The notes below the pieces were generated by a model that saw only the letters and a program-made list of their open reading frames with translations, was not told where the DNA came from and made no database searches. From Macrostomum hystrix (Eukaryota > Animalia > Platyhelminthes): DNA of 64,000 bases. Location: assembly GCA_950097015.1 (NCBI GenBank), contig CATNEN010000039.1, positions 13,268,001 to 13,332,000 on the forward strand. The letters are read 5' to 3'. Numbering within the stretch: the stretch's first letter is position 1; every line of letters starts with the position of its first letter. Shown one piece after another: positions 1 to 55,633 of the stretch. Both the position numbers and the translations under genes were made by a program.

Positions 1-230
1 GAATAAGAATGGGATGCGTGAATCAGAATGGGATCTGTGAATCAGAATGGGATCTGTGAATCAGAATGGGATCTGTGAATCAGAATGGGATCTGTGAATC
101 AGAATGGGATCTGTGAATCATAATGGGATCTGTGAATCAGAATGGGATCTAATTAAATCAGAATGGGATCTGTGAATCAGAATGGGATCTGTGAATCAGA
201 ATGGGATCTGTGAATCAGAATGGGATTTGT
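1..230. repeat. 19-bp minisatellite GAATCAGAATGGGATCTGT (array continues off the window start)
   Basis: Direct reading of tandem units. Confidence 0.95.
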
Positions 231-801
231 TGACCGGATTATGATTGTATGTGTAATTATCTGAGTCTGCAATTAGCCTTACAATGAAATCGTCTGGGAA
301 TTAGATTGCTACCTGAAAACATGTTAGAAGAAAAGTATTTTTATGTACGATATAAGTTCCATTTCGGCGGTTTGCGCACTCGCTACTGTAAGTAGTGACA
401 AGAAGCTAATGAAAAAATCCTGGTTTTGAATGAAATAAAAGCATGCATAAATATTCATTTTGATATATTTTTCTTTAAAAAACTGATGCTTATCGAACAA
501 ATGGCAAATAGAGACAAACAAATAAAAACAAGGTTTGATATCTAGGAAGCCACAGCTGAGCATTATGACAGATAAGAGATTAGCGAAAACGAAATGTTTA
601 ATATTCGATTGCCATCTTTATAAAGCAGACTTCAACCACAAAAACAAATTGTGCACACAAAGTAGGTCAAAGTTTCGAAAGCAACATATACAATAAAAGG
701 GCAAAACAAAATACTATATAACTCTGCTACACTTATAACAAAAAGTCTGCTTATTACTCGATGCAAGCCTAACAGGAAATACACGTCAAATATGTGACCA
801 A

Positions 802-1849
802 TGTCTAACAGGTGATCAGTGTCTAACAGGTGATCAGTGTCTAACAGGTGATCAGTGTCTAACAGGTGATCAGTGTCTAACAGGTGATCAGTGTCTAACA
901 GGTGATCAGTGTCTAACAAGTGATCAGTGTCTAACAGGTGATCAATATCTAACAGGTGATCTATATGTCTAACATGTGATCAATGTCTAACAGATGATCA
1001 GTGTCTAACAGGTGATCAGTGTCTAACAGGTGATCGGTGTCTAACAGGTGATCAGTTTCTAACAGGTGATCAGTGTCTAACAAGTGATCAGTGTCTAACA
1101 GGTGATCAATATCTAACAGGTGATCTATATGTCTAACATGTGATCAATGTCTAACAGATGATCAGTGTCTAACAGGTGATCAGTGTCTAACAGGTGATCA
1201 GTGTCTAACAGGTGATCAGTGTCTAACAGGTGATCAGTGTCTAACAGGTGATCAGTGTCTAAGAAGTGATCAGTGTCTAACAGGTGATCAATATCTAACA
1301 GGTGATCTATATGTCTAACATGTGATCAATGTCTAACAGATGATCAGTGTCTAACAGGTGATCAGTGTCTAACAGGTGATCAGTGTCTAACAGGTGATTG
1401 GTTTCTAACAGGTGATCAGTTTCTAACAGGTGATCAGTGTCTAACAGGTGATCAGTGTCTAACAGGTGATCAGTGTCTAACAAGTGATCAGTGTCTAACA
1501 GGTGATCAATATCAAACAGGTGATCTATATGTCTAACATGTGATCAGTGTCTAACAGGTGATCAGTGTCTAACAGGTGATCAGTGTCTAACAAGTGATCA
1601 GTGTCTAACAGGTGATCAGTTTCTAACAGGTGATCAGTGTCTAACAAGTGATCAGTGTCTAACAGGTGATTAATGTCTAACAGGTGAACAATGTCTACCA
1701 TGTGATCAATGTCTAACAGGTGATCAATGTCTAACAGGTAATCAGTGTCTAAGGGGTGATCAATATATCCAGCGGGTGATTAATGTCTAACAGGTGAACA
1801 ATATCTAACAGGTGATCAGTGTCTAACAGGTGAACAATATCTAACAGGT
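802..1849. repeat. 18-bp satellite GTCTAACAGGTGATCAGT, unit 1 array
   Basis: Direct reading. Confidence 0.97.
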
Positions 1850-2322
1850 TGTAGCCTAACAAACAATTAAATTGTCAACAAAGGTTTACAAAGTAATAAT
1901 TTTCCAACAATTGCACTTTAATCATCTAAGCTTAACGTGTACTTGTTTGTTTTTTTCAAAACAAGAGAAAAAAATGTGTTTACGTTATGAAAACGTTTTG
2001 AAAACTAAAGAAGCGTGTAATGTTAACAATTGAAAATACATAGGCAACATATTCTGATGTTGGACAATAATACTATAAATTAAAATAATTTTTTGAGAAC
2101 CTTAAAACCCTTTTGTACAATCGATACTATACAAAAGTGGAAGCAGATTAAAAATTATTTAACAAAAAATTGAATACTTTTGTGAAGCATATATTGCAAA
2201 GCAACAAGTTCTAAAATGATAAATAAATAAGGAAGCGGATCCGCATATACTACTGACCAAACTGACCAAGAAACTTTCTTGTAAACTTGTAAACTTACAT
2301 TGCACGATCTGGTCCATTAGTG

Positions 2323-2511
2323 TCAAAGATTGTACATGTATTGCGCAATCACTACAAACACCAGTGAAAGAAAAAAATAAACATTTAGCTGCAAATGAAA
2401 GATGAGAACTGATGATATTGTTGTGAGTACCATAGCAGACGACACTAGGAATAATTTACTGATGTTGGAGGCGAACTTCATGATAACACCCATGATCATA
2501 CCGCCGATGGC
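2323..2511 (-). pseudogene. Orphan duplicate of the SLC35A4 last coding exon (unit 1)
   Basis: Near-identical to 60463-60651 (one L>S change). Acceptor is retained but upstream exons are absent. Confidence 0.9.
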
Positions 2512-2554
2512 CTGTGAAACGGCGAATGCAATGATTAATTAGCGAAATTGACTA

Positions 2555-3268
2555 TAATCTACCAGATTTATCTACTAGAATCTAACAGATTCATCTACTA
2601 GAATCTACTAGGATTATCTACTAGAATCTACCTGATTTATCTACTAGAATCTACTAGGATTATCTACTAGAATCTACTAGGATTATCTACTAGAATCTAC
2701 TAGGATTATCTACTAAAATCTAACAGATTCATCTACTAGAATCTACCAGATTCATCCACTACAATCTACCAGATTTGTCTACTAGAATCTACCTATCTAC
2801 TTCTATTATTTATTATTTATTTACTAGAATCTATCCGATCTTTCTACTAGAATCTACCAGATCTATTTACTAGAATCTACCAGCATTATCTACTAGAATC
2901 TACGAGATTAATCTACTAGAATCTACCAGCATTATCTACTAGAATCTACCAGATTTATTTACTAGAATCTACCAGATTTATCTACTAGAGTCTACCAGCA
3001 TTATGTACTAGAATCTACCAGCATTATCTACTAGAATCTACCAGATTTATTTACTAGAACCTACCAGATTTATCTACTAGAGTCTACCAGATTTATCTAC
3101 TAGAATCTACCAGCATTATCTACTAGAATCTACCAGATTTATTTACTAGAATCTAACAGATTTATCTACTAGAGTCTACCAGCATTATGTACTAGAATCT
3201 ACCAGATTTGTCTACTAGAATCTTCCAGATATATCTACTAGAATCTACCAGATTTATCTACTAGAATC
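2555..3268. repeat. 23-bp minisatellite CTACTAGAATCTACCAGATTTAT (junction-containing array)
   Basis: Direct reading. Each unit contains the inverted repeat AATCT-ACC-AGATT. Confidence 0.95.
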
Positions 3269-3733
3269 AACTTCGAAATGCTCAGATTCTGGCATTTTGA
3301 CTTTGCTATATTCGAAATTGATTCAATAATACTCGTAGATGTTGTATTTTAAATTAATATTCTGCTTCCTGGAAATCGATACAATTTTGGAGTAATTTTA
3401 TGGTATGTAGCTTAAACGGTGTGTTATTCACTCAATCGTGAATAATAATTCGGCATGTTCACATGTAGTGCAATTGACACAAGCGAGCCCCAACGCCGAG
3501 CACAGCTCACCGTGTATTTAGCGCTAACAAATATACGGGCACGCTCTAAGTCTCACAAGACCTTTGAGGACTGTAGCATTTGTGGGCAACAACAGCAGTC
3601 TATGGTAACAAGACAATAAGCGCACATCACCGAGCATAGCTACCTACATGCATACGAATAGCTAAAAAACAATTAGCTAACAAATAGCTTACACACACAC
3701 TCAGCATTTGGCAAGTCAGGAGAGACGGAGTCG

Positions 3734-3767
3734 GTCACGTGATCAGCCCCGAACGGAAATATAAATA
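3734..3767 (+). promoter_or_regulatory. Core promoter of secreted-protein gene copy 1: E-box GTCACGTGA, ETS-like CGGAAA, TATAAATA
   Basis: Motifs at 3734-3742, 3754-3759 and 3760-3767, about 165 nt upstream of the ATG. Conserved in all three copies. Confidence 0.55.
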
Positions 3768-3926
3768 TCGACGCTGGTTAGCCTGCTAAATCACGCGCCT
3801 GTGGGAATCCTTCTTCAGGACAGAGCAACGCCCAATTCTTATTATTTTGCTTCAGACGCTCAAGACTTTTAGTTGCTTTCAGACCAGACCTGTCAGCAGC
3901 GGAGAAACAGACAACAGGCAAAGAAT

Positions 3927-4520
3927 ATGAACAGTTTCACAACAGTTCTGCTGCTGCTGCTACTTGCACTGTCGATTTCAACCACTGGTAAGTTGAAGCC
4001 AAGCTCTTATATTGTCTTATTGAAAGTCTCGCAATAGACAGGAGAAGAAAAAAGACACTAATTATTTTTATCTCCAGATGCAGCAACTATCTCCTCAGGC
4101 CAGCGTCGCCTAGTTCGCAGATCTAACGTAAACGCTGCTGACTACGATCCGAGCCTCACAAAGTTTACTGACGACTGTCCGAATGGCTACATTGCCCATC
4201 TGAAGTTTAACGCCAGTAAGTCCTCTGGAAGAATTTGGATCAATCACATATACTGTTTCGCCAATCGATTTCCTAATTCAATTCCAGCAACTGGCCTATT
4301 CGGCTGCGCCATCAGAACGCCGGAGATTTGCTTCGTGTTGTGCGAGATGATGCGCAGCGACAACTGGGATCCCACTAACGTGGTGTCCATTCTGGATAAC
4401 AGAGAATTCGACGGCTGGTACTGTAGGGCCCTGCCTCAATACGCCACCAGACCGTGCTTCTACAAGTCCAAGTACGAGACTCTGCTTGATGTGAGGCAGA
4501 TGTACACAAGAGATCGATAG
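3927..4520 (+). CDS. Novel secreted Cys-rich preproprotein, copy 1 (exons 3927-3987, 4078-4215, 4288-4520; 143 aa)
   Basis: Manual splice and translation: MNSFTTVLLLLLLALSISTTDA-ATISSGQRRLVRR-SNVNAADYDPSLTKFTDDCPNGYIAHLKFNATTGLFGCAIRTPEICFVLCEMMRSDNWDPTNVVSILDNREFDGWYCRALPQYATRPCFYKSKYETLLDVRQMYTRDR*. Both introns are GTAAGT...CTAAT...CCAG (90 and 72 nt, both phase 1). Hydrophobic signal peptide, upstream TATA box, AATAAA at 4588-4593. Confidence 0.85.
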
Positions 4521-4904
4521 ATGTACTACTAGCCAGATTACTGCCAGAACTGTGCGGAACTGTCCGGAGGCTCTGCAGATCGACATTAATAAACAATAGT
4601 AAAAATGCAACTCGTATATGCTTTGCAATGCAGTGAAAATATTATCTCCGATTGCTGGCGTGTGCGTGTGTGTGCTTGAATTCTTTAGGGCCTAAGCATA
4701 ATCGATTAATGTCTTAACTCCAGTGAAATATATGAAATACATTAATATTCTAATAACCAAATATAGTTTTGGCAATTCAACAAAATACCCGAAGATGACA
4801 GCAATGACTGAAAACGCAACCACTAAAACATGGCCTAAGTAATTATGGCATTTCTTGTGTATTAACTCAAATAGACGATAAATGGCTACAGATATATAGC
4901 CATA

Positions 4905-4955
4905 TAGATATATAGATTATAGATAGATAGATATAGATAGATTGATTGATAGATG
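4905..4955. repeat. (GATA)n microsatellite, unit 1 (no PLE)
   Basis: Direct reading. Confidence 0.85.
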
Positions 4956-6439
4956 GAATTTTCGCAAGGCAAAGTTGAAAAAGTACATTTATAGGATTCC
5001 ACAAGAAAACTTTTTTTAGCCATCAGTTGAAGGACAGCCCGGGCATCGGAAATTCCTGCCCGTTTCGCCCCCGAAAATAATCCTACAATTTCGCAGACAA
5101 ATTACCGGCGCAAGGAATGCAAATCTAAAAATGGCTGATGTGCTATGTCCCAGCAACTAAAGTGATTACACTCACTGCGGCCATTCATGCTAGCAAGGGC
5201 TAGGGCTAGGGCTAGCAAGATCTGCAGAAATCAAGAAATCAAAGACGTTCTAGAAATTATTTGTCCAAGCTACGAATATTACGCGATCCTACATAAAAAT
5301 CCCAATCAAACACGGTTTCCAAGAAACACGAAACTAAATAATTCAAACGTCAGAGAGTAATCTTCTAAAAATTAACATTTCTAATTCATCAGACTAAATT
5401 AGAATGATTAGATAAACGGGTTCTCAGAATGAGTATTACTTAGAAATTCAGCTTGAAAAAAATCTTTCAAAATTATATTTCCTAGAAATTTTATTGCTTA
5501 AAGAGATGATAACTTGAACACTCAGGTGTTTTGAAAAAGAAAGATTTCTTGGAAAACGTGCACTTTCTTTGAGTAACACTCTTTATATTGTTAATTTATC
5601 AACTTTTGAACCGATACGAATTCGCTAATGAGGCTTATATTATATGTCCTTGTCACCAGGGTCTTCGACAAAAAACTGCTGAATATCTCGACATGCTGAC
5701 TTGGACAACTAACAAATTAGTTAATCATAAGCTTTGATTCCGTCAATTATTTGATATTTCAGAGTAGGAAATTTCTTATAATATTCCGTCACGGACGTGA
5801 TCCGTGTTCTTTGACTTTTATTTATATCAGATGCCACTTAAAACAATTTCAGGCCAATATAGAAACCTTCGCAATAATGGCCTTGTGTTGTAAGGTGACA
5901 ATTGAAGTGCTCTTGTGAGATTGTAAAAGCGACTTTTATTTAGACTTTCTCTTTGGTTAATGAAATTCAAAGTTTTATTTTTACATTATTCTTTATTAAT
6001 ATTAGTAGAATTTAATAATCAAATTGATATTTCAATTCCATGCCTACCGAGACATTTTTAAAGGTTCCTAGATTGTTTTAAATTTAACACACCGTAATAT
6101 AAGGAAAATCACAATCGAACATTATCCGAAATCTACATGCAACTGACATATTTAACAAATCACTTTTCAGAATCAGCCAAGATTATAATTGGATCTGACA
6201 GACTCATAAATTAGCATCATTACTTTCTAGATATTGCTGTTAAGTGTACCAACGGAAGCTTTTAAACAATGAACAGAAGCAGTTAATGATTATCAATAAA
6301 AGTATATGACTTTCGAAGCGACTGCCGACAGCAATTGGAGAAAGTGGTTCGAGTATAAAACTATAGGCGATAAACAAATGGCTTCGTGTAATGAGTAGCA
6401 CTACTCATACCCAAGTAATCTCGGAAATGAATATTCGTA

Positions 6440-9400
6440 TGGATTATGCAACCTAGGGACTGTAGGATGTTTAGGGAGTATGCAATCTGGGGAATGTAGG
6501 ATGTTTAGGGAGTATGCAATCTGGGGAATGCAGGATGTTTAGGGAGTATGCAATCTGGGGAATGTAGGATGTTTAGGGAGTATGCAATCTGGGGAATGTA
6601 GGATGTTTAGGGAGTATGCAATCTGGGGAATGTAGGATGTTTAGGGAGTATGCAATCTGGGGAATGTAGGATATGTAAGGAGTATGTAATCTGGGGAATG
6701 CAGGATGTTTAGGGAGTATGTAATCTGGGGAATGCAGGATGTTTAGGGAGTATGTAATCTGGGGAATGTAGGATGTTTAGGGAGTATGTAATCTGGGGAA
6801 TGCAGGATGTTTAGGGAGTATGCAATCTGGGGAATGTAGGATGTTTAGGGAGTATGCAATCTGGGGAATGCAGGATGTTTAGGGAGTATGCAATCTGGTG
6901 AATGTAGGATGTTTAGGGAGTATGCAATCTGGGGAATGTAGGATGTTTAGGGAGTATGTAATCTGGGGAATGCAGGATGTTTAGGGAGTATGCAATCTGG
7001 GGAATGTAGGATGTTTAGGGAGTATGCAATCTGGGGAATGCAGGATGTTTAGGGAGTATGCAATCTGGTGAATGTAGGATGTTTAGGGAGTATGCAATCT
7101 GGGGAATGTAGGATGTTTAGGGAGTATGTAATCTGGGGAATGCAGGATGTTTAGGGAGTATGTAATCTGGGGAATGCAGGATGTTTAAGGAGTATGCAAT
7201 CTGGGGAATGCAGGATGTTTAGGGAGTATGCAATCTGGGGAATGTAGGATGTTTAGGGAGTATGCAATCTGGGGAATGCAGGATGTTTAGGGAGTATGCA
7301 ATCTGGGGAATGCAGGATGTTTAGGGAGTATGCAATCTGGGGAATGTAGGATGTTTAGGGAGTATGCAATCTGGGGAATGCAGGATGTTTAGGGAGTATG
7401 CAATCTGGGGAATGTAGGATGTTTAGGGAGTATGCAATCTGGGGAATGTAGGATGTTTAGGGAGTATGCAATCTGGGGAATGTAGGATGTTTAGGGAGTA
7501 TGCAATCTGGGGAATGCAGGATGTTTAGGGAGTATGCAATCTGGGGAATGCAGGATGTTTAGGGAGTATGCAATCTGGGGAATGTAGGATGTTTAGGGAG
7601 TATGCAATCTGGGGAATGTAGGATGTTTAGGGAGTATGCAATCTGGGGAATGCAGGATGTTTAGGGAGTATGCAATCTGGGGAATGTAGGATGTTTAGGG
7701 AGTATGCAATCTGGGGAATGTAGGATGTTTAGGGAGTATGCAATCTGGGGAATGTAGGATGTTTAGGGAGTATGCAATCTGGGGAATGCAGGATGTTTAG
7801 GGAGTATGCAATCTGGGGAATGTAGGATGTTTAGGGAGTATGCAATCTGGGGAATGTAGGATGTTTAGGGAGTATGCAATCTGGGGAATGTAGGATGTTT
7901 AGGGAGTATGCAATCTGGGGAATGTAGGATGTTTAGGGAGTATGCAATCTGGGGAATGCAGGATGTTTAGGGAGTATGCAATCTGGGGAATGTAGGATGT
8001 TTAGGGAGTATGCAATCTGGGGAATGCAGGATGTTTAGGGAGTATGCAATCTGGGGAATGTAGGATGTTTAGGGAGTATGCAATCTGGGGAATGTAGGAT
8101 GTTTAGGGAGTATGCAATCTGGGGAATGTAGGATGTTTAGGGAGTATGCAATCTGGGGAATGCAGGATGTTTAGGGAGTATGCAATCTGGGGAATGCAGG
8201 ATGTTTAGGGAGTATGCAATCTGGGGAATGTAGGATGTTTAGGGAGTATGCAATCTGGGGAATGTAGGATGTTTAGGGAGTATGCAATCTGGGGAATGCA
8301 GGATGTTTAGGGAGTATGCAATCTGGGGAATGTAGGATGTTTAGGGAGTATGCAATCTGGGGAATGTAGGATGTTTAGGGAGTATGCAATCTGGGGAATG
8401 TAGGATGTTTAGGGAGTATGCAATCTGGGGAATGCAGGATGTTTAGGGAGTATGCAATCTGGGGAATGTAGGATGTTTAGGGAGTATGCAATCTGGGGAA
8501 TGTAGGATGTTTAGGGAGTATGCAATCTGGGGAATGCAGGATGTTTAGGGAGTATGCAATCTGGGGAATGTAGGATGTTTAGGGAGTATGCAATCTGGGG
8601 AATGTAGGATGTTTAGGGAGTATGCAATCTGGGGAATGTAGGATGTTTAGGGAGTATGCAATCTGGGGAATGTAGGATGTTTAGGGAGTATGCAATCTGG
8701 GGAATGTAGGATGTTTAGGGAGTATGCAATCTGGGGAATGTAGGATGTTTAGGGAGTATGCAATCTGGGGAATGCAGGATGTTTAGGGAGTATGCAATCT
8801 GGGGAATGCAGGATGTTTAGGGAGTATGCAATCTGGGGAATGTAGGATGTTTAGGGAGTATGCAATCTGGGGAATGTAGGATGTTTAGGGAGTATGCAAT
8901 CTTGGGAATGTAGGATGTTTAGGGAGTATGCAATCTGGGGAATGCAGGATGTTTAGGGAGTATGCAATCTGGGGAATGCAGGATGTTTAGGGAGTATGCA
9001 ATCTGGGGAATGTAGGATGTTTAGGGAGTATGCAATCTGGGGAATGTAGGATGTTTAGGGAGTATGCAATCTGGGGAATGTAGGATGTTTAGGGAGTATG
9101 CAATCTGGGGAATGCAGGATGTTTAGGGAGTATGCAATCTGGGGAATGTAGGATGTTTAGGGAGTATGCAATCTGGGGAATGTAGGATGTTTAGGGAGTA
9201 TGCAATCTGGGGAATGTAGGATGTTTAGGGAGTATGCAATCTGGGGAATGTAGGATGTTTAGGGAGTATGCAATCTGGGGAATGCAGGATGTTTAGGGAG
9301 TATGCAATCTGGGGAATGTAGGATGTTTAGGGAGTATGCAATCTGGGGAATGCAGGATGTTTAGGGAGTATGCAATCTGGGGAATGTAGGATGTTTAGGG

Positions 9401-12400
9401 AGTATGCAATCTGGGGAATGTAGGATGTTTAGGGAGTATGCAATCTGGGGAATGTAGGATGTTTAGGGAGTATGCAATCTGGGGAATGCAGGATGTTTAG
9501 GGAGTATGCAATCTGGGGAATGCAGGATGTTTAGGGAGTATGCAATCTGGGGAATGTAGGATGTTTAGGGAGTATGCAATCTGGGGAATGTAGGATGTTT
9601 AGGGAGTATGCAATCTGGGGAATGCAGGATGTTTAGGGAGTATGCAATCTGGGGAATGTAGGATGTTTAGGGAGTATGCAATCTGGGGAATGTAGGATGT
9701 TTAGGGAGTATGCAATCTGGGGAATGTAGGATGTTTAGGGAGTATGCAATCTGGGGAATGCAGGATGTTTAGGGAGTATGCAATCTGGGGAATGTAGGAT
9801 GTTTAGGGAGTATGCAATCTGGGGAATGTAGGATGTTTAGGGAGTATGCAATCTGGGGAATGCAGGATGTTTAGGGAGTATGCAATCTGGGGAATGTAGG
9901 ATGTTTAGGGAGTATGCAATCTGGGGAATGTAGGATGTTTAGGGAGTATGCAATCTGGGGAATGTAGGATGTTTAGGGAGTATGCAATCTGGGGAATGTA
10001 GGATGTTTAGGGAGTATGCAATCTGGGGAATGTAGGATGTTTAGGGAGTATGCAATCTGGGGAATGTAGGATGTTTAGGGAGTATGCAATCTGGGGAATG
10101 CAGGATGTTTAGGGAGTATGCAATCTGGGGAATGCAGGATGTTTAGGGAGTATGCAATCTGGGGAATGTAGGATGTTTAGGGAGTATGCAATCTGGGGAA
10201 TGTAGGATGTTTAGGGAGTATGCAATCTTGGGAATGTAGGATGTTTAGGGAGTATGCAATCTGGGGAATGCAGGATGTTTAGGGAGTATGCAATCTGGGG
10301 AATGCAGGATGTTTAGGGAGTATGCAATCTGGGGAATGTAGGATGTTTAGGGAGTATGCAATCTGGGGAATGTAGGATGTTTAGGGAGTATGCAATCTGG
10401 GGAATGCAGGATGTTTAGGGAGTATGCAATCTGGGGAATGTAGGATGTTTAGGGAGTATGCAATCTGGGGAATGTAGGATGTTTAGGGAGTATGCAATCT
10501 GGGGAATGTAGGATGTTTAGGGATGCAATCTGGGGAATGCAGGATGTTTAGGGAGTATGCAATCTGGGGAATGTAGGATGTTTAGGGAGTATGCAATCTG
10601 GGGAATGTAGGATGTTTAGGGAGTATGCAATCTGGGGAATGTAGGATGTTTAGGGAGTATGCAATCTGGGGAATGCAGGATGTTTAGGGAGTATGCAATC
10701 TGGGGAATGCAGGATGTTTAGGGAGTATGCAATCTGGGGAATGCAGGATGTTTAGGGAGTATGCAATCTGGGGAATGTAGGATGTTTAGGGAGTATGCAA
10801 TCTGGGGAATGCAGGATGTTTAGGGAGTATGCAATCTGGGGAATGCAGGATGTTTAGGGAGTATGCAATCTGGGGAATGTAGGATGTTTAGGGAGTATGC
10901 AATCTGGGGAATGTAGGATGTTTAGGGAGTATGCAATCTGGGGAATGCAGGATGTTTAGGGAGTATGCAATCTGGGGAATGCAGGATGTTTAGGGAGTAT
11001 GCAATCTGGGGAATGTAGGATGTTTAGGGAGTATGCAATCTGGGGAATGTAGGATGTTTAGGGAGTATGCAATCTGGGGAATGCAGGATGTTTAGGGAGT
11101 ATGCAATCTGGGGAATGTAGGATGTTTAGGGAGTATGCAATCTGGGGAATGTAGGATGTTTAGGGAGTATGCAATCTGGGGAATGTAGGATGTTTAGGGA
11201 GTATGCAATCTGGGGAATGTAGGATGTTTAGGGAGTATGCAATCTGGGGAATGCAGGATGTTTAGGGAGTATGCAATCTGGGGAATGTAGGATGTTTAGG
11301 GAGTATGCAATCTGGGGAATGTAGGATGTTTAGGGAGTATGCAATCTGGGGAATGTAGGATGTTTAGGGAGTATGCAATCTGGGGAATGCAGGATGTTTA
11401 GGGAGTATGCAATCTGGGGAATGCAGGATGTTTAGGGAGTATGCAATCTGGGGAATGTAGGATGTTTAGGGAGTATGCAATCTGGGGAATGTAGGATGTT
11501 TAGGGAGTATGCAATCTGGGGAATGTAGGATGTTTAGGGAGTATGCAATCTGGGGAATGCAGGATGTTTAGGGAGTATGCAATCTGGGGAATGCAGGATG
11601 TTTAGGGAGTATGCAATCTGGGGAATGTAGGATGTTTAGGGAGTATGCAATCTGGGGAATGTAGGATGTTTAGGGAGTATGCAATCTGGGGAATGTAGGA
11701 TGTTTAGGGAGTATGCAATCTGGGGAATGTAGGATGTTTAGGGAGTATGCAATCTGGGGAAAGTAGGATGTTTAGGGAGTATGCAATCTGGGGAATGCAG
11801 GATGTTTAGGGAGTATGCAATCTGGGGAATGTAGGATGTTTAGGGAGTATGCAATCTGGGGAATGTAGGATGTTTAGGGAGTATGCAATCTGGGGAATGT
11901 AGGATGTTTAGGGAGTATGCAATCTGGGGAATGCAGGATGTTTAGGGAGTATGCAATCTGGGGAATGTAGGATGTTTAGGGAGTATGCAATCTGGGGAAT
12001 GTAGGATGTTTAGGGAGTATGCAATCTGGGGAATGTAGGATGTTTAGGGAGTATGCAATCTGGGGAATGCAGGATGTTTAGGGAGTATGCAATCTGGGGA
12101 ATGCAGGATGTTTAGGGAGTATGCAATCTGGGGAATGTAGGATGTTTAGGGAGTATGCAATCTGGGGAATGTAGGATGTTTAGGGAGTATGCAATCTGGG
12201 GAATGTAGGATGTTTAGGGAGTATGCAATCTGGGGAATGTAGGATGTTTAGGGAGTATGCAATCTGGGGAATGTAGGATGTTTAGGGAGTATGCAATCTG
12301 GGGAATGTAGGATGTTTAGGGAGTATGCAATCTGGGGAATGCAGGATGTTTAGGGAGTATGCAATCTGGGGAATGTAGGATGTTTAGGGAGTATGCAATC

Positions 12401-15062
12401 TGGGGAATGTAGGATGTTTAGGGAGTATGCAATCTGGGGAATGCAGGATGTTTAGGGAGTATGCAATCTGGGGAATGTAGGATGTTTAGGGAGTATGCAA
12501 TCTGGGGAATGTAGGATGTTTAGGGAGTATGCAATCTGGGGAATGTAGGATGATTAGGGAGTATGCAATCTGGGGAATGCAGGATGTTTAGGGAGTATGC
12601 AATCTGGGGAATGCAGGATGTTTAGGGAGTATGCAATCTGGGGAATGCAGGATGTTTAGGGAGTATGCAATCTGGGGAATGCAGGATGTTTAGGGAGTAT
12701 GCAATCTGGGGAATGTAGGATGTTTAGGGAGTATGCAATCTGGGGAATGTAGGATGTTTAGGGAGTATGCAATCTGGGGAATGCAGGATGTTTAGGGAGT
12801 ATGCAATCTGGGGAATGCAGGATGTTTAGGGAGTATGCAATCTGGGGAATGTAGGATGTTTAGGGAGTATGCAATCTGGGGAATGTAGGATGTTTAGGGA
12901 GTATGCAATCTGGGGAATGCAGGATGTTTAGGGAGTATGCAATCTGGGGAATGTAGGATGTTTAGGGAGTATGCAATCTGGGGAATGTAGGATGTTTAGG
13001 GAGTATGCAATCTGGGGAATGTAGGATGTTTAGGGAGTATGCAATCTGGGGAATGTAGGATGTTTAGGGAGTATGCAATCTGGGGAATGCAGGATGTTTA
13101 GGGAGTATGCAATCTGGGGAATGTAGGATGTTTAGGGAGTATGCAATCTGGGGAATGTAGGATGTTTAGGGAGTATGCAATCTGGGGAATGTAGGATGTT
13201 TAGGGAGTATGCAATCTGGGGAATGCAGGATGTTTAGGGAGTATGCAATCTGGGGAATGCAGGATGTTTAGGGAGTATGCAATCTGGGGAATGTAGGATG
13301 TTTAGGGAGTATGCAATCTGGGGAATGTAGGATGTTTAGGGAGTATGCAATCTGGGGAATGTAGGATGTTTAGGGAGTATGCAATCTGGGGAATGCAGGA
13401 TGTTTAGGGAGTATGCAATCTGGGGAATGCAGGATGTTTAGGGAGTATGCAATCTGGGGAATGTAGGATGTTTAGGGAGTATGCAATCTGGGGAATGTAG
13501 GATGTTTAGGGAGTATGCAATCTGGGGAATGTAGGATGTTTAGGGAGTATGCAATCTGGGGAATGTAGGATGTTTAGGGAGTATGCAATCTGGGGAAAGT
13601 AGGATGTTTAGGGAGTATGCAATCTGGGGAATGCAGGATGTTTAGGGAGTATGCAATCTGGGGAATGTAGGATGTTTAGGGAGTATGCAATCTGGGGAAT
13701 GTAGGATGTTTAGGGAGTATGCAATCTGGGGAATGTAGGATGTTTAGGGAGTATGCAATCTGGGGAATGCAGGATGTTTAGGGAGTATGCAATCTGGGGA
13801 ATGTAGGATGTTTAGGGAGTATGCAATCTGGGGAATGTAGGATGTTTAGGGAGTATGCAATCTGGGGAATGTAGGATGTTTAGGGAGTATGCAATCTGGG
13901 GAATGCAGGATGTTTAGGGAGTATGCAATCTGGGGAATGCAGGATGTTTAGGGAGTATGCAATCTGGGGAATGTAGGATGTTTAGTGAGTATGCAATCTG
14001 GGGAATGTAGGATGTTTAGGGAGTATGCAATCTGGGGAATGTAGGATGTTTAGGGAGTATGCAATCTGGGGAATGCAGGATGTTTAGGGAGTATGCAATC
14101 TGGGGAATGCAGGATGTTTAGGGAGTATGCAATCTGGGGAATGCAGGATGTTTAGGGAGTATGCAATCTGGGGAATGTAGGATGTTTAGGGAGTATGCAA
14201 TCTGGGGAATGCAGGATGTTTAGGGAGTATGCAATCTGGGGAATGTAGGATGTTTAGGGAGTATGCAATCTGGGGAATGCAGGATGTTTAGGGAGTATGC
14301 AATCTGGGGAATGCAGGATGTTTAGGGAGTATGCAATCTGGGGAATGCAGGATGTTTAGGGAGTATGCAATCTGGGGAATGTAGGATGTTTAGGGAGTAT
14401 GCAATCTGGGGAATGCAGGATGTTTAGGGAGTATGCAATCTGGGGAATGTAGGATGTTTAGGGAGTATGCAATCTGGGGAATGTAGGATGTTTAGGGAGT
14501 ATGCAATCTGGGGAATGCAGGATGTTTAGGGAGTATGCAATCTGGGGAATGCAGGATGTTTAGGGAGTATGCAATCTGGGGAATGTAGGATGTTTAGGGA
14601 GTATGCAATCTGGGGAATGTAGGATGTTTAGGGAGTATGCAATCTGGGGAATGTAGGATGTTTAGGGAGTATGCAATCTGGGGAATGCAGGATGTTTAGG
14701 GAGTATGCAATCTGGGGAATGCAGGATGTTTAGGGAGTATGCAATCTGGGGAATGTAGGATGTTTAGGGAGTATGTAATCTGGGGAATGCAGGATGTTTA
14801 GGGAGTATGTGGTCTGGGGAATGCAGGATGTTTAGGGAGTATGCAATCTGGGGAATGCAGGATGTTTAGGGAGTATGCAATCTGGGGAATGTAGCATGTT
14901 TAGGGAGTATGCAATCTGGGGAATGTAGGATGTTTAGGGAGTATGTAATCCGGGGAATGTAGGATGTTTAGGGAGTATGTAATCTGGGGAATGTAGGATG
15001 TTTAGGGAGTATGTAATCTGGGGAATGCAGGATGTTTAGGGAGTATGTGGTCTGGGAATGTA
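6440..15062. repeat. 34-bp G-rich minisatellite GGGAGTATGCAATCTGGGGAATG(T/C)AGGATGTTTA, about 250 copies
   Basis: Period 34 measured (6481 to 6515). Very homogeneous core with degenerate edges. Confidence 0.98.
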
Positions 15063-15560
15063 AGATATATAGAAAGTGAAGAAGCCCAGGGACTGCATGT
15101 ATAGATAGGAGTAGAAATGTCTGTTTCCGGGCATGACACCAGTCGCCACATGACTAGCTAAGGGCAAACGAGAGTTGAGCTAAAAGCAGCACAACTAAGA
15201 GCAGGCATTCAACGAAATGACAGTCTCCAATCCGTACTCATAACTGGATTAGCTGTGTCTGCATGCTCAATACTCAGTGTCTGCCTTTGATATCCACAAG
15301 CCCACGCAAAAAATGTGACCTCGAAGTTTCGACGCGAAACTTTGTCAATCCACTCAGCCAAATGAATACTTTTCTCTTCGCCCTGCTCGGCAGTGCGTCA
15401 CATTCTCAGTGTCTGCAATTTTGACTAACTGCTCGTGGGATAAGAATTGGAATGAAAGTTCTACTGGAATAAATAAAAGTAGATTGTAGCTTTTCTGCAC
15501 TAAAACTCAAATTTAATTTCATTCCGCGTTTGAGAAAAAAACTCTGTATTGGATTAAGAC

Positions 15561-16647
15561 CTGTGAATCAGAATGGGATCTGTGAATCCGAATGGGATCT
15601 GTGAATCTGAATGGAATCTGCGAATCAGAATGGGATTAGTGAATCAGAATGGGATCTGTGAATCAGAATAGGATCTGTCAATCTGAATGGAATCTGCGAA
15701 TCAGAATGGAATCTGTTAATCAGAGTGAGATCTGCGAATCAGAATGGAATCTGTCAATCTGAATGGAATCTGCGAATCAGAATGGAATCTGTCAATCTGA
15801 ATGGAATCTGCGAATCAGAATGGAATCTGTCAATCTGAATGGAATCTGCGAATCAGAATGGAATCTGTAATTCAGAATGGAATGCGTGAATCAGAATGGG
15901 ATCTGTGAATCAGAATGGGATGCGTGAATCAGAATGGGATGCGTGAAACAGAATGGGATGCGTGAATCAGAATGGGATGCGTGAAACAGAATGGGATGCG
16001 TGAATCAGAATAAGATCTGTGAATCAGAATGGGATGCGTGAATCAGAATAAGATCTGTGAATCAGAATGGGATCTTTAAATCAGAATGGGATGCGTGAAT
16101 TAGAATGTGATTTGTAAATTAGAATGGGATCTGTGAATCAGAATAGGATGCGCGAATTAGAATGGGATTTGTGAATCAGAATGATATTTGTGAATCAGAA
16201 TGGGATCTGTGAATCAGAATGGGATCTGTGAATCAGAATGGGATCTGTGAATCAGAATTGGATGCGTGAATCAGAATGAAATCTGTGAATCAGAGTGAGA
16301 TCTGTGAATCAGAATGGAATGCATGAATCAGAATGGGATGCGTGAAACAGAATGGGATCTGTGAATCAGAATGGGATCTGTGATTCAGAATGGGATGCGT
16401 GAATCAGAATTAGATGCGTAAAACAGAATGGGATGCGTGAATCAGAATGGGATACGTGAAACAGAATGGGATGCGTGAATCAGAATGAGATCTGTGAATC
16501 AGAATGTGATTTGTAAATTAGAATGGGATTTGTGAATCAGAATGGGATCTGTGATTTAGAATGGGATCTGTGAATCAGAATGGGATCTGTGAATCAGAAT
16601 GGGATCTGTGAATCAGAATGGGATCTGTGAATCAGAATGGGATTTGT
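15561..16647. repeat. 19-bp minisatellite array
   Basis: Tandem GAATCAGAATGGGAT(CT/GC)GT units. Confidence 0.95.
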
Positions 16648-17219
16648 GGACCGGATTATGATTGTATGTGTAATTATCTGAGTCTGCAATTAGCCTTACA
16701 ATGAAATCGTCTGGGAATTAGATTGCTACCTGAAAACATGTAAGAAGAAAAGTATTTTTATGTACGATATAAGTTCCATTTCGGCGGTTTGCGCACTCGC
16801 TACTGTAAGTAGTGACAAGAAGCTAATGAAAAAATCCAGGTTTTGAATGAAATAAAAGCATGCATAAATATTCATTTTGATATATTTTTCTTTAAAAAAC
16901 TGATGCTTATCGAACAAATGGCAAATAGAGACAAACAAATAAAAACAAGGTTTGATATCTAGGAAGCCACAGCTGAGCATTATGACAGATAAGAGATTAG
17001 CGAAAACGAAATGTTTAATATTCGATTGCCATCTTTATAAGGAAGACTTCAACCACAAAAACAAATTGTGCATACAAAGTAGGTCAAAGTATCGAAAGCA
17101 ACATATACAATAAAAGGGCAAAACAAAATACTATATAACTCTGCTACATTTATAACAAAAAGTCTGCTTATTACTCGATGCAAGCCTAACAGTAAATACA
17201 CGTCAAATATGTGACCAAT

Positions 17220-20200
17220 GTCTAACAGGTGATCAGTGTCTAACAGGTGATCAGTGCCTTACACGTTGTGTCTGTCTAACAGGTGATCAGTGTCTAACAG
17301 GTGATCAGTGTCTAACAGGTGATCAGTGTCTAACAGGTGATCAGTGTCTAACAGGTGATCAGTGTCTAACAGGTGATCAGTGTCTAACAAGTGATCAGTG
17401 TCTAACAGGTGATCAGTGTCTAACAGGTGACAGTGTCTCACAGGTGATCGATCAGTGTCTAACAGGTGATCAGTGTCTAACAGGTGATCAATGTCTAACA
17501 GGTTATCAGTGTCTAACAGGTGATCAGTGTCTAACAGGTGATCAGTGTCTAACAGGTTATCAGTGTCTAACAGGTGATCAATATCTAACAGGTGATCAGC
17601 GTCTAACAGGTGATCAGTGTCTAACAGGTGATCAGTGTCTAACAGGTGATCAGTGTCTAACAGGTGATCAGTGTCTAACAGGTGATCAGTGTCTAAAAGG
17701 TGATCAGTGTCTTACAGGTGATCGATCAGTGTCTAACAGGTGATCATTGTCTAACAGATGATCAGTGTCTAACAGGTGATCAATGTCTAACAGGTGATCA
17801 GAGTCTAACAGGTGATCAATGTCAAATACGTTGCGTCTGTCTAACAGGTGATCAGTGCCTAACAGGTGATCATTGTCTAACAGGTGATCAGTGTCTAACA
17901 GATGATCAATGTCTAACAGGTGATCAGTGTCTAACAGGTGATCAGTTTCTAACAGGTCATCAGTGTCTAACAGGTGATCAGTGTCTAACAGATGATCAAT
18001 ATCTAACAGGTGATCAGTGTCTAATGGATGATCAGTGTCTAACAGGTGATTAGTGTCTAACAGGTGATCAGTGTCTAACAGGTGATCAGTGTCTAACAAG
18101 TGATCAGTGTCTAACAGGTGATCAGTGTCTAACAGGTGATCAATGTCTAACAGGTGATCTATATCTAACAGGTGATCAGTGTCTAACAGGTGATCAGTGC
18201 CTAACAGGTGATCAGTGTCTAACAAGTGATCAGTGTCTAACAGGTGATCAGTGTCTAACAAGTGATCAGGGTCTAACAGGTGATCAGTGTCTAACAGGTG
18301 ATCAATATCTAACAGGTGATCAGCGTCTAACAGGTGATCAGTGTCTAACAGGTGATCAATGTCTAACAGGTGATCAGTGTCTAACAGGAGATCAGTGTCT
18401 AACAGGTGATCAGTGTCTAACAGGTGATCAGTGTCTAACAGGTGATCAGTGTCTAACAGGTGATCAGTGTCTAACAGGTGATCAGTGTCAAAAAGGTGAT
18501 CAGTGTCTTACAGGTGATCGATCAGTGTCTAACAGGTGATCATTGTCTAACAGGTGATCAGTGTCTAACAGGTGATCAATGTCTAACAGGTGATCAGAGT
18601 CTAACAGGTGATCAATGTCAAATACTTTGCGTCTGTCTAACAGGTGATCAGTGTCTAACAGGTGATCAGTGTCTAAACAGGTGATCAGTGTCTAACAGGT
18701 GATCAGTGTCTAACAGGTGATCATTGTCTAACAGGTGATCAGTGTCTAACAGATGATCAATGTCTAACAGGTGATCAGTGTCTAACAGGTGATCAGTTTC
18801 TAACAGGTCATCAGTGTCTAACAGGTGATCAGTGTCTAACAGATGATCAATATCTAACAGGTGATCAGTGTCTAACAGATGATCAGTGTCTAACAGGTGA
18901 TTAGTGTCTAACAGGTGATTAGTGTCTAACAGATGATCAATGTCTAACAGGTGATCAGTGTCTAACAGATGATCAATGTCTAACAGGTGATTAATGTCTA
19001 ACAGGTGATCAGTATCTAAAAGGTGATCAGTGTCTAACAGGTTATTAATGTCTAACAGGTGATCAGTGTCTAACAGATGATCAATGTCTAACAGGTGATC
19101 AGTGTCTAACAGGTGATCAGTGTCTAACAATTGTGATCAGTGTCTAACAGGTGATCGATCAGTGACTAACAGGTGATCAGTGTCTAACAGGTGATCAGTG
19201 TCTAACAGGTGATCAGTGTCTATAAGTTCTAATAGTTCTATAGTGTCACCTGTCAAACAGATGATCAATGTCTAACAGGTGATCAGTGTCTAACAGGTGA
19301 TCAGTGTCTAACAGGTGATCAGTGTCTAACAGGTGATCAATGTCTAACAGGTGATCTATATCTAACAGGTGATCAGTGTCTAACAGGTGATCAATGTCTA
19401 ACAGGTGATCTATATCTAACAGGTGATCAGTGTCTAACAAGTGATCAGTGTCTAACAGGTGATCAATATCTAACAGGTGATTAGTGCCTAACAGGTGATC
19501 AGTGTCTAACAAGTGATCAGTGTCTAACAAGTGATCAGTGTCTAACAGGTGATCAGTGTCTAACAGGTGATCAGTGTCTAACAGGTGATCAGTGTCTAAC
19601 AGGTGATCAGTGTCTAACAGGTGATCAGTGTCTAAAAGGTGATCAGTGTCTTACAGGTGATCGATCAGTGTCTAACAGGTGATCATTGTCTAACAGGTGA
19701 TCAGTGTCTAACAGGTGATCAATGTCTAACAGGTGATCAGAGTCTAACAGGTGATCAATGTCAAATACGTTGCGTCTGTCTAACAGGTGATCAGTGCCTA
19801 ACAGGTGATCAGTGTCTAACAGGTGATCAGTGTCTAACAGGTGATCAGTGTCTAACAGGTGATCATTGTCTAACAGGTGATCAGTGTCTATCAGATGATC
19901 AATGTCTAACAGGTGATCAGTGTCTAACAGGTGATCAGTTTCTAACAGGTCATCAGTGTCTAACAGGTGATCAATGTCTAACAGATGATCAATATCTAAC
20001 AGGTGATCAGTGTCTAACAGATGATCAGTGTCTAACAGGTGATTAGTGTCTAACAGGTGATCAGTGTCTAACAGGTGATCAGTGTCTAACAAGTGATCAG
20101 TGTCTAACAGGTGATCAGTGTCTAACAGGTGATCAATATCTAACAGGTGATCAGTGTCTAACAGGTGATCAGTGCCTAACAGGTGATCAGTGTCTAACAA

Positions 20201-23200
20201 GTGATCAGTGTCTAACAGGTGATCAGTGTCTAACAAGTGATCAGTGTCTAACAGGTGATCAGTGTCTAACAGGTGATCAATATCTAACAGGTGATCAGCG
20301 TCTAACAGGTGATCAGTGTCTAACAGGTGATCAATGTCTAACAGGTGATCAGTGTCTAACAGGTGATCAGTGTCTAACAGGTGATCAGTGTCTAACAGGT
20401 GATCAGTGTCTAACAGGTGATCAGTGTCTAACAGGTGATCAGTGTCTAACAGGTGATCAGTGTCTAACAGGTGATCAGTGTCAAAAAGGTGATCAGTGTC
20501 TTACAGGTGATCGATCAGTGTCTAACAGGTGATCATTGTCTAACAGGTGATCAGTGTCTAACAGGTGATCAATGTCTAACAGGTGATCAGAGTCTAACAG
20601 GTGATCAATGTCAAATACTTTGCGTCTGTCTAACAGGTGATCAGTGTCTAACAGGTGATCAGTGTCTAACAGGTGATCAGTGTCTAACAGGTGATCAGTG
20701 TCTAACAGGTGATCATTGTCTAACAGGTGATCAGTGTCTAACAGATGATCAGTGTCTAACAGGTGATTAGTGTCTAACAGGTGATTAGTGTCTAACAGAT
20801 GATCAATGTCTAACAGGTGATCAGTGTCTAACAGATGATCAATGTCTAACAGGTGATTAATGTCTAACAGGTGATCAGTATCTAAAAGGTGATCAGTGTC
20901 TAACAGGTAATTAATGTCTAACAGGTGATCAGTGTCTAACAGATGATCAATGTCTAACAGGTGATCAGTGTCTAACAGGTGATCAGTGTCTAACAATTGT
21001 GATCAGTGTCTAACAGGTGATCGATCAGTGACTAACAGGTGATCAGTGTCTAACAGGTGATCAGTGTCTAACAGGTGATCAGTGTCTATAAGTTCTAATA
21101 GTTCTATAGTGTCACCTGTCAAACAGATGATCAATGTCTAACAGGTGATCAGTGTCTAACAGGTGATCAGTGTCTAACAGGTGATCAGTGTCTAACAGGT
21201 GATCAATGTCTAACAGGTGATCTATATCTAACAGGTGATCAGTGTCTAACAGGTGATCAATGTCTAACAGGTGATCTATATCTAACAGGTGATCAGTGTC
21301 TAACAAGTGATCAGTGTCTAACAGGTGATCAATATCTAACAGGTGATTAGTGCCTAACAGGTGATCAGTGTCTAACAAGTGATCAGTGTCTAACAAGTGA
21401 TCAGTGTCTAACAGGTGATCAGTGTCTAACAGGTGATCAGTGTCTAACAGGTGATCAGTGTCTAACAGGTGATCAGTGTCTAACAGGTGATCAGTGTCTA
21501 AAAGGTGATCAGTGTCTTACAGGTGATCGATCAGTGTCTAACAGGTGATCATTGTCTAACAGGTGATCAGTGTCTAACAGGTGATCAATGTCTAACAGGT
21601 GATCAGAGTCTAACAGGTGATCAATGTCAAATACGTTGCGTCTGTCTAACAGGTGATCAGTGCCTAACAGGTGATCAGTGTCTAACAGGTGATCAGTGTC
21701 TAACAGGTGATCAGTGTCTAACAGGTGATCATTGTCTAACAGGTGATCAGTGTCTAACAGATGATCAATGTCTAACAGGTGATCAGTGTCTAACAGGTGA
21801 TCAGTTTCTAACAGGTCATCAGTGTCTAACAGGTGATCAATGTCTAACAGATGATCAATATCTAACAGGTGATCAGTGTCTAACAGATGATCAGTGTCTA
21901 ACAGGTGATTAGTGTCTAACAGGTGATCAGTGTCTAACAGGTGATCAGTGTCTAACAAGTGATCAGTGTCTAACAGGTGATCAGTGTCTAACAGGTGATC
22001 AATATCTAACAGGTGATCAGCGTCTAACAGGTGATCAGTGCCTAACAGGTGATCAGTGTCTAACAAGTGATCAGTGTCTAACAGGTGATCAGTGTCTAAC
22101 AAGTGATCAGTGTCTAACAGGTGATCAGTGTCTAACAAGTGATCAGTGTCTAACAGGTGATCAGTGTCTAACAGGTGATCAATATCTAACAGGTGATCAG
22201 CGTCTAACAGGTGATCAGTGCCTAACAGGTGATCAGTGTCTAACAGGTGATCAATGTCTAACAGGTGATCAGTGTCTAACAGGTGATCAGTGTCTAACAG
22301 GTGATCAGTGTCTAACAGGTGATCAGTGTCTAACAGGTGATCAGTGTCTAACAGGTGATCAGTGTCTAACAGGTGATCAGTGTCTAAAAGGTGATCAGTG
22401 TCTTACAGGTGATCGATCAGTGTCTAACAGGTGATCATTGTCTAACAGGTGATCAGTGTCTAACAGGTGATCAATGTCTAACAGGTGATCTATATCTAAC
22501 AGGTGATCAGTGTCTAACAGGTGATCAATGTCTAACAGGTGATCAATATCTAACAGGTGATCAGCGTCTAACAGGTGATCAGTGCCTAACAGGTGATCAG
22601 TGTCTAACAGGTGATCAATGTCTAACAGGTGATCAGTGTCTAACAGGTGATCAGTGTCTAACAGGTGATCAGTGTCTAACAGGTGATCAGTGTCTAACCG
22701 GTGATCAGTGTCTAACAGGTGATCAGTGTCTAACAGGTGATGAGTGTCTAAAAGGTGATCAGTGTCTTACAGGTGATCGATCAGTGTCTAACAGGTGATC
22801 ATTGTCTAACAGGTGATCAGTGTCTAACAGGTGATCAATGTCTAACAGGTGATCAGAGTCTAACAGGTGATCAATGTCAAATACGTTGCGTCTGTCTAAC
22901 AGGTGATCAGTGTCTAACAGGTGATCAGTGTCTAACAGGTGATCAGTGTCTAACAGGTGATCAGTGTCTAACAGGTGATCATTGTCTAACAGGTGATCAG
23001 TGTCTAACAGATGATCAATGTCTAACAGGTGATCAGTGTCTAACAGGTGATCAGTTTCTAACAGGTCATCAGTGTCTAACAGGTGATCAGTGTCTAACAG
23101 ATGATCAATATCTAACAGGTGATCAGTGTCTAACAGATGATCAGTGTCTAACAGGTGATTAGTGTCTAACAGGTGATTAGTGTCTAACAGGTGATCAATG

Positions 23201-44200: not shown

Positions 44201-44530
44201 AGGTGATCAGTGTCTAACATGTGATCAATGTCTTACAGGTGATCAATGTCTAAAAGGTGATCAATGTCTAACAGGTAATCATTGTCTAAGGGGTGATCAA
44301 TATATCCAGCAGGTCATTAATGTCTAACAGGTGATCAGTGTCTAACAGGTGATCAGTGTCTAACAGGTCATCAGTGTCTAACAGTTGATCAGTGTCTAAC
44401 AGGTGATCAGTGTCTAACAGGTCATCAGTGTCTAACAGGTGATCAGTGTCTAACAGATGATCAATATCTAACAGGTGATCAGTGTCTAACAGGTGATTAA
44501 TGTCTAACAGGTGAACAATATCTAACAGGT
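17220..44530. repeat. 18-bp satellite, 27.3-kb array (about 1500 monomers) with higher-order structure
   Basis: Same monomer and same unique flanks as the 1-kb arrays. Variant patterns recur at 1866, 2158, 5580 and 8550 bp. Confidence 0.98.
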
Positions 44531-45001
44531 TGTAGCCTAACAAACAATTAAATTGTCAACAAAGGTTTACAAAGCAATAATTTTCCAACAATTGCACTTT
44601 AATCATCTAAGCTTAACGTGTACTTGTTTGTTTTTTCAAAACAAGAGAAAAAATGTGTTTACGTTATGAAAACGTTTTGAAAACTAAAGAAGCGTGTAAT
44701 GTTAACAATTGAAAATACATAGGCAACATATTCTGATGTTGGACAATAATACTATAAATTAATAGAATTTTTTGAGAACCTTAAAACCCTTTTGTACAAT
44801 CGATACTATACAAAAGTGGAAGCAGATTAAAAATTATTTAACAAAAAATTGAATACTTTTGTGAAGCATATATTGCAAAGCAACAAGTTCTAAAATGATA
44901 AATAAATAAGGAAGCGAATCCGCATATACTACTGACCAAACTGACCAAGAAACTTTCTTGTAAACTTGTAAACTTACATTGCACGATCTGGTCCATTAGT
45001 G

Positions 45002-45190
45002 TCAAAGATTGTACATGTATTGCGCAATCACTACAAACACCAGTGAAAGAAAAAAATAAACATTTAGCTGCAAATGAAAGATGAGAACTGATAATATTGT
45101 TGTGAGTACCATAGCAGACGACACTAGAAATAATTTACTGATGTTGGAGGCGAACTTCATGATAACACCCATGATCATACCGCCGATGGC
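45002..45190 (-). pseudogene. Orphan duplicate of the SLC35A4 last coding exon (unit 2)
   Basis: Near-identical to 60463-60651. No upstream exons in this unit. Confidence 0.9.
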
Positions 45191-45233
45191 CTGTGAAACG
45201 GCGAATGCAATGATTAATTAGCGAAATTGACTA

Positions 45234-53057: not shown

Positions 53058-53085
53058 CTGTGAAACGGCGAATGCGAAATTGACT

Positions 53086-55602: not shown

Positions 55603-55633
<31 letters not shown>

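What the first reader, a model, noticed from the sequence alone, without database searches (positions are those of the whole stretch)
3927..4520. Tandemly amplified, unrecognised secreted 6-Cys preproprotein (toxin, immune effector or signalling-like)
Seen in sequence: a 3-exon gene of which the ORF track shows only the last 61 aa. It has a signal peptide on its own exon with a phase-1 intron (predicted cleavage TDA|A), a 13-aa pro-piece ending RRLVRR|S, and a 108-aa mature domain with Cys at 54, 73, 81, 85, 112 and 123 plus an N-A-T sequon. Three intact copies (3927, 47221, 54453) each have a promoter and poly(A) signal. Established: signal + short propeptide + dibasic convertase site + disulfide domain is the architecture of venom, antimicrobial and pheromone/hormone precursors, which often expand in tandem. 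Inference: it is the only complete gene in the amplified unit, so it is the likely dosage target. I recognise no family for it.
Basis: partly seen in the sequence, partly recalled or inferred. Interest (0 to 1): 0.85.

Follow-up and report, generated by a model that had tools for sequence, protein, structure and literature searches.

The report
Flatworm-only secreted six-cysteine protein family
A spliced gene of a Macrostomum flatworm, present here in three near-identical tandem copies, encodes a small six-cysteine protein of no recognised family that is predicted to be secreted and trimmed, and likely acts as a body-wide signal rather than as a venom.

Summary
The gene is real. The 3-exon model gives a 143-aa protein at all three copies. 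Public contigs splice intron 1 exactly in 4 of 4 runs laid and intron 2 in 3 of 4. The neighbouring SLC35A4 gene places the window in Macrostomum (82-92% to M. lignano). The only homologues found are three unnamed M. lignano genes; a published orthogroup holds them in 4 of 4 Macrostomum species. All share a signal peptide, an Arg|Ser site and Cys spacing 18-7-3-26-10. The cysteine core is conserved (60-73%) while signal and propiece drift (26-29%). The mature chain is acidic. M. lignano homologues are not region-specific and are expressed near housekeeping level, also in hatchlings. This argues against venom, cationic antimicrobial peptide or seminal-fluid protein, and favours a convertase-matured signalling ligand (inferred, about 0.4). 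No family or fold was found; a PAN/apple resemblance is weak. The copies sit in a recent 7-8 kb satellite-rich tandem duplication that also carries an orphan SLC35A4 exon; nothing shows dosage selection. Verdict: undescribed genus-wide secreted family, modest interest.

The parts
3927..3987 (+). Copy 1 exon 1 (coding part): predicted signal peptide, phase-1 intron follows
   Evidence: first ATG after 3648 is 3927
3988..4077 (+). Intron 1, 90 nt, GT..AG
   Evidence: skipped in 4 of 4 runs laid
4078..4215 (+). Copy 1 exon 2: propiece with RR|S, start of mature chain, Cys54, N-A-T sequon spanning the exon end
4216..4287 (+). Intron 2, 72 nt, GT..AG; open in frame (24 codons) but spliced out
   Evidence: 3 of 4 runs; absent from homologues
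4288..4520 (+). Copy 1 exon 3 coding part: five Cys and C-terminal tail
3667..4790 (+). Extent covered by spliced contigs (5' and 3' UTR included); true ends not shown
   Evidence: table 8
47221..47814 (+). Copy 2, intact (H61Y against copy 1); its five listed diagnostic variants are all in the contig of run X6
54453..55046 (+). Copy 3, intact (D42H, H61Y against copy 1)
3269..46559 (.). Repeat unit 1, inflated to 43 kb by an 8.6-kb 34-bp array (6441-15066) and a 27-kb 18-bp array (17211-44530)
46560..53791 (.). Repeat unit 2 (7.2 kb): gene, ATAG array, 1.2-kb spacer, 19-bp array, 0.56-kb spacer, 18-bp array, SLC35A4 last exon, 23-bp array
53792..61696 (.). Repeat unit 3 (7.9 kb), continuous with the intact SLC35A4 gene
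1..3268 (.). Tail of a further unit; implies a fourth gene copy left of the window (inferred)
   Evidence: same junction precedes all three copies
60463..62986 (-). Intact 3-exon nucleotide-sugar transporter (SLC35A4-like), convergent neighbour; its last exon is copied at 2323-2520, 45002-45199 and 52869-53066

Best explanation
This is a spliced, transcribed gene of a Macrostomum-wide family whose product is predicted to be secreted, cut after an arginine by a furin-like convertase, and folded by three disulfides into an acidic 108-residue protein that likely acts as an extracellular signal on a conserved partner in the worm's own body. Shown: splicing, family, invariant Cys spacing, Arg|Ser site in all members, core conservation. 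Inferred: secretion, cleavage, disulfides, N-glycosylation, ligand role. The three copies most likely arose recently from one tandem duplication whose junction lies at the 23-bp array in SLC35A4 intron 2, re-amplified by unequal crossing-over, with the gene as a passenger (inferred, about 0.6 on its own).
For: Core residues 54-123 are 51, 45 and 42 of 70 identical to the three M. lignano homologues, against 10/35, 9/35 and 8/31 in signal plus propiece; spacing 18-7-3-26-10 in all 8 sequences; Arg|Ser site and one N-glycosylation sequon in all; mature pI 4.6-5.7. Orthogroup OG0001910 has 12 genes in 4 of 4 species (PMC7336406 supplement rows). Five M. lignano members are 'Non-Specific' along the body; two such transcripts in PMC4490696 stained gut and one stained cells resembling neurons. 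baseMean 123-334 against 147 for the housekeeping SLC35A4; Mlig014950.g1 equal in adults and hatchlings (padj 0.77). One paralogue is socially responsive. Amplification: identical junction before 3 of 3 copies, 8-21 mismatches per 1.6 kb, none in the introns.
Against: No receptor, cell type, phenotype or confident fold is known. The same data fit a gut or epidermal binding or defence protein. Expression data are from M. lignano, not this species; in run X6 the contig depth is 459, which may mean high expression here but cannot rank genes. 'Non-specific' pools gut, nerve and skin. The window branch is long (0.64), so the family is not ultra-conserved. Closest-orthologue assignment rests on length, identity and the shared sequon, not on a rooted tree or synteny.
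Confidence: 0.4

Rival explanations
1. A gut or skin secreted binding or defence protein (lectin-like, protease-inhibitor-like or non-cationic antimicrobial), possibly built on a diverged PAN/apple core.
For: Body-wide expression fits gut or epidermis. The last four Cys with CxxxC, CRA and C-aromatic-x-K echo PAN domains: anchored score p 0.010-0.047 against shuffles; UniRef auto-name 'Apple domain' on one paralogue.
Against: PAN test is post hoc and weak: hhalign probability 0.9%, P 0.062; scores -6 to -14 against 24-52 for the 25 PAN domains themselves; 26 residues between Cys3 and Cys4 of the motif against 5 in 25 of 25. Three members carry three different auto-names. Expression near housekeeping level.
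Confidence: 0.3
2. A venom-like or defensive toxin precursor, amplified for dose.
For: Signal + short propiece + basic site + disulfide domain; tandem copies; 2 of 3 coding differences among copies change the residue.
Against: Mature core conserved and leader divergent, the reverse of the usual toxin-gene pattern (recalled); no gland-level or regional expression in homologues; copies are 98.5-99.5% identical with no diversification; three changes are too few to show selection.
Confidence: 0.08
3. A seminal-fluid, adhesive or other reproductive secretion.
For: Paralogue Mlig017821 is about 2-2.5-fold up in adults and flagged OvI_up/OvP_up.
Against: No member is tail-, testis- or ovary-specific (5 of 5 rows 'Non-Specific'); the closest homologue is unchanged and Mlig005456 is higher in hatchlings.
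Confidence: 0.05
4. The tandem copies are partly an assembly artefact (haplotypes from pooled worms stitched through satellites); the gene is real but single- or two-copy.
For: Copies differ at allele-like levels (0.5-1.3%) and are separated by long satellites; PMC10468722 passages report separately assembled haplotypes in first Macrostomum assemblies.
Against: The head-to-tail junction (23-bp array joined to gene upstream) does not exist in a single-copy locus unless it is ancestral, yet the intact SLC35A4 continues differently; four distinct versions of two spacers; unit 1 has a different spacer (86% over 474 nt, other inserts); copy-specific variants recur in independent contigs.
Confidence: 0.17

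Closest known systems
M. lignano hypothetical proteins Mlig014950g1/Mlig029358g1 (143 aa), Mlig005456 (137 aa), Mlig017821 (152 aa); orthogroup OG0001910 of PMC7336406
   Same: Same architecture, Cys spacing and Arg|Ser site; 60-73% identity in the core
   Different: Unnamed and uncharacterised; their several gene models may reflect M. lignano polyploidy (inferred), and tandem arrangement there was not testable
PAN/apple domain (Pfam PAN_1, PAN_4)
   Same: CxxxC, then CRA, then C-aromatic-x-K order; low-confidence model puts a helix at CxxxC and short strands at the later Cys
   Different: 26-residue instead of 5-residue loop, two conserved prolines where PAN has a strand, an extra N-terminal Cys pair, no significant profile match
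Convertase-matured disulfide hormones and growth factors as a class (insulin-like, eclosion hormone, CHH/ITP, cystine knots; recalled)
   Same: Signal, propiece, basic site, conserved disulfide core, divergent leader
   Different: Cys spacing 18-7-3-26-10 has no CC, CxC or CxGxC motif; no Pfam match
Venom and antimicrobial preproproteins (class, recalled)
   Same: Precursor layout and tandem copies
   Different: Acidic, core-conserved, not gland-level in homologues

Membership tests
Macrostomum orthogroup OG0001910 family | Significant sequence similarity and identical six-Cys spacing | tested here: met
   E 2.8e-27 and 3.6e-24, 9.7e-44 by profile; spacing identical in 8 of 8
Secreted convertase-matured preproprotein | Hydrophobic N-terminal signal and conserved basic site followed by Ser | tested here: met
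   Peak 10-residue hydropathy 2.6-3.5 and Arg|Ser in 8 of 8 sequences; SignalP/ProP not available
Secreted convertase-matured preproprotein | Actual secretion and cleavage | not testable with these tools
   Needs proteomics
PAN/apple domain | Profile match to PAN_1/PAN_4 | tested here: not met
   No Pfam PAN hit for window fragments or 5 homologues; hhalign probability 0.9%
PAN/apple domain | Short loop between CxxxC and the next Cys | tested here: not met
   26 residues against 5 in 25 of 25 bacterial PAN domains; animal PAN domains were not sampled
PAN/apple domain | PAN fold and disulfide pairing | tested here: inconclusive
   Models too poor (pLDDT 52 and 41)
SRCR domain | Match within the mature protein | tested here: not met
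   CD163 hit (E 3.4e-05) rests mostly on residues read from intron 2, which is spliced out and absent from homologues; it does not recur with the family profile
Cationic antimicrobial peptide | Net positive charge | tested here: not met
   Net charge -1.5 to -6.5 at pH 7 in 8 of 8
Rapidly diversifying venom toxin family | Hypervariable mature region with conserved signal (recalled) | tested here: not met
   Core 60-74%, leader 25-46% identity over all six pairs
Rapidly diversifying venom toxin family | Toxic activity, gland expression | not testable with these tools
   No assay or cell-type data found
Macrostomum seminal fluid or adhesive proteins | Tail-specific, adult-biased expression | tested here: not met
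   M. lignano homologues 'Non-Specific'; not adult-biased except Mlig017821
Cystine-knot or insulin-type hormones | CxGxC/CxC or CC motifs (recalled) | tested here: not met
   Spacing 18-7-3-26-10
Tick Salp15 / 8-Cys proteins | Language-model feature similarity of 0.9 or more | tested here: not met
   Best Atlas score 0.76, below what a third of shuffled proteins reach

The most novel reading that the evidence does not exclude
A flatworm-specific protein hormone or social-signalling ligand family with a disulfide fold not yet in the PDB, kept in three paralogues across Macrostomum, one tuned by group size, and copy-number variable through satellite-driven duplication.
Probability: 0.2. Interest if true: 0.6.

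Novelty: new variant of a known kind. Interest (0 to 1): 0.33.

Why it matters
Macrostomum is a tractable model (RNAi, in situ, transgenesis) and this family is small, conserved across the genus and unnamed, so its function can be tested directly. If it is a ligand it would add a flatworm-specific signalling molecule and perhaps a new disulfide fold. Lineage-restricted secreted cysteine-rich proteins are common in invertebrates, however, and the tandem amplification looks like ordinary copy-number variation, so a specialist would be curious rather than surprised.

Tried and rejected
Whole genome: none held, so no genome-wide paralogue count or synteny. Word-index search with the read-through frame found nothing (8 candidates) although close homologues exist, so that tool's blanks are weak; the full HMMER scan gave 3 hits, of which the 1827-aa repeat protein P0004 was dropped as spurious. 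Profile search: 3 hits among 684 candidates, all M. lignano. Metagenome scan: 79 pattern hits, none confirmed. PDB sequence search: SRCR hit rejected as intron-derived; antibody light chains E 0.59-1.4, not significant. AlphaFold2: exon 3 alone pLDDT 52, M. lignano homologue with 6-row alignment pLDDT 41; fold searches gave best Z 2.8 and 3.6 and best Foldseek E 3.5, which says nothing about fold novelty. Atlas: Salp15-like 0.76 and TM under 0.4; a second look with the mature part was not obtained. UniRef auto-names (Kp4, GPCR family 2, Apple) disagree and were not accepted. Mlig014950.g2 ('germline_FACS') belongs to another orthogroup and was not used. Gene ids in full text: 0 papers for three ids (Mlig017821 was not searched in full text); other literature searches listed no paper on this family by title or abstract. 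Supplement searches without hits: PMC5977470 (holds no Mlig0 ids, so uninformative), PMC8662610, PMC5816591, PMC7806878. Earlier scan notes: none. Expression of copies 1 and 3 as such was not established.

Full report
Observation. Splice sites are identical in the three copies and both introns are phase 1 GT..AG. Intron 2 is 72 nt and open in frame, so it had to be tested. Contigs from public runs skip intron 1 in 4 of 4 runs laid and intron 2 in 3 of 4; the fourth contig ends with nine letters equal to the start of exon 3. These were 4 of 9 listed runs, from 3 studies; only one is on record as RNA. The homologues also lack those 24 residues.

Organism. The convergent neighbour is a nucleotide-sugar transporter (Pfam Nuc_sug_transp). 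Its exons are 82-92% identical to M. lignano Mlig007964; exon 2 is 52% identical to the Schmidtea protein. The window is therefore a Macrostomum flatworm other than the reference M. lignano (inference; species not determined).

Family. A full HMMER scan of 1.84 billion representatives gave 3 hits: two M. lignano hypothetical proteins and one long repeat protein dropped as spurious. A profile search added a third M. lignano gene, Mlig017821. In the supplement of PMC7336406 (rows and passages seen) these genes share orthogroup OG0001910: 12 genes, M. hystrix 3, M. lignano 5, M. spirale 3, M. pusillum 1. That study compared only these four species, and other free-living flatworms are thin in the databases, so 'Macrostomum only' means 'not found elsewhere here'.

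Anatomy. All 8 sequences compared have a hydrophobic leader, an Arg|Ser site, one N-glycosylation sequon and Cys spacing 18-7-3-26-10. The core (54-123) is 51, 45 and 42 of 70 identical to the three M. lignano proteins, while signal plus propiece is 10/35, 9/35 and 8/31. Mature chains are acidic (pI 4.6-5.7). The N-A-T sequon at 65 is shared only with the closest homologue; the others have theirs elsewhere.

Expression of homologues. Five M. lignano members are classed 'Non-Specific' along the body axis. In PMC4490696 (passages seen) four such transcripts were stained: two gut, one neuron-like, one nothing. In PMC10092323 (supplement rows and passages; file cut when stored, so Mlig029358 was not seen) baseMeans are 276-323 for Mlig005456, 280 for Mlig014950.g1 and 123-334 for Mlig017821.g1/g3, against 147 for SLC35A4. 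Mlig014950.g1 is unchanged between adults and hatchlings, Mlig005456.g1 and g3 are higher in hatchlings, Mlig017821 is 2-2.5-fold higher in adults and flagged as up in the social contrasts (direction read from the label).

Fold and known families. Pfam gave nothing. The SRCR hit in the PDB comes from the spliced-out intron. I noticed a PAN/apple-like motif order and tested it against 25 bacterial PAN domains fetched from genomes. hhalign gave probability 0.9% and P 0.062. An anchored score beat shuffles at p 0.010-0.047, but the family was chosen by eye, scores were negative, and the central loop is 26 residues instead of 5. It remains a lead, not a membership. Structure models were too poor to use.

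The amplification. After masking arrays, the window resolves into a unit of gene, ATAG array, spacer, 19-bp array, spacer, 18-bp array, SLC35A4 last exon and 23-bp array. Units 2 and 3 are 7.2 and 7.9 kb; unit 1 is stretched to 43 kb by two giant arrays. The same junction precedes all three gene copies, whereas the last 23-bp array continues into intact SLC35A4 exon 2. This fits one tandem duplication broken in SLC35A4 intron 2 and re-amplified, with a founder copy left of the window (inferred). Copies differ by 8, 19 and 21 mismatches over 1.6 kb, none in introns, three in coding sequence. All five listed variants of run X6 are in copy 2; variants private to copy 2 or copy 3 recur in X1 and X2, which also carry changes seen in no copy. 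So the differences are real polymorphisms. False duplication of haplotypes is not excluded (PMC10468722 passages), but the junction and four distinct spacer versions argue against it. Nothing tests dosage selection; the orphan SLC35A4 exon is amplified just as much.

Mechanism and verdict. A conserved mature core behind a drifting leader, a retained convertase site, acidic charge and moderate body-wide, stage-independent expression fit a secreted ligand with a conserved partner best (0.4). A gut or skin binding or defence protein is close behind (0.3); toxin (0.08) and reproductive secretion (0.05) are disfavoured. Secretion, cleavage, disulfides and function are all inferred. The family is unnamed in the records seen and three of its gene ids occur in no searched full text. 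It is a new cysteine framework within a familiar kind of precursor. Interest 0.33. Other papers consulted: PMC5977470, PMC8662610, PMC5816591 and PMC7806878 (supplement searches only, no hits), PMC12148028 (passages, nothing relevant). General statements on toxin, hormone and Penelope motifs are recalled, not from calls.

Noticed in passing
window 60463-62986 (-), with extra last exons at 2323-2520, 45002-45199, 52869-53066: Intact SLC35A4-like nucleotide-sugar transporter whose two introns and 3' region are filled with satellites; its last exon is present four times, three as orphans that could in principle serve as alternative terminal exons.
   Followed up: partly
window 48748-49176 and 56564-56983 (-): Fragment resembling the C-terminal part of a Penelope-type GIY-YIG endonuclease (motif recalled; no Pfam hit), present in units 2 and 3 but not unit 1.
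   Followed up: partly
window 17211-44530 and 6441-15066: An 18-bp array of about 1508 copies (27 kb; 58-94 copies in the other units) and a 34-bp array of about 254 copies at 97% match found only in unit 1: very large array length changes between units that are about 99% identical.
   Followed up: no
window 4216-4287: Intron 2 is open in frame in all three copies and its translation resembles an SRCR motif; retention would give a 167-aa, 7-Cys form. No contig laid showed retention, but contigs drop rare forms.
   Followed up: partly
window 4955-6440 and 15067-15560: Sequence private to unit 1 around the 34-bp array; only 5375-5816 matches units 2 and 3, at 86%, against 98.5% for the gene segment, suggesting an older unit partly homogenised.
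   Followed up: partly
window 63162-64000: A 41-bp array upstream of SLC35A4.
   Followed up: no
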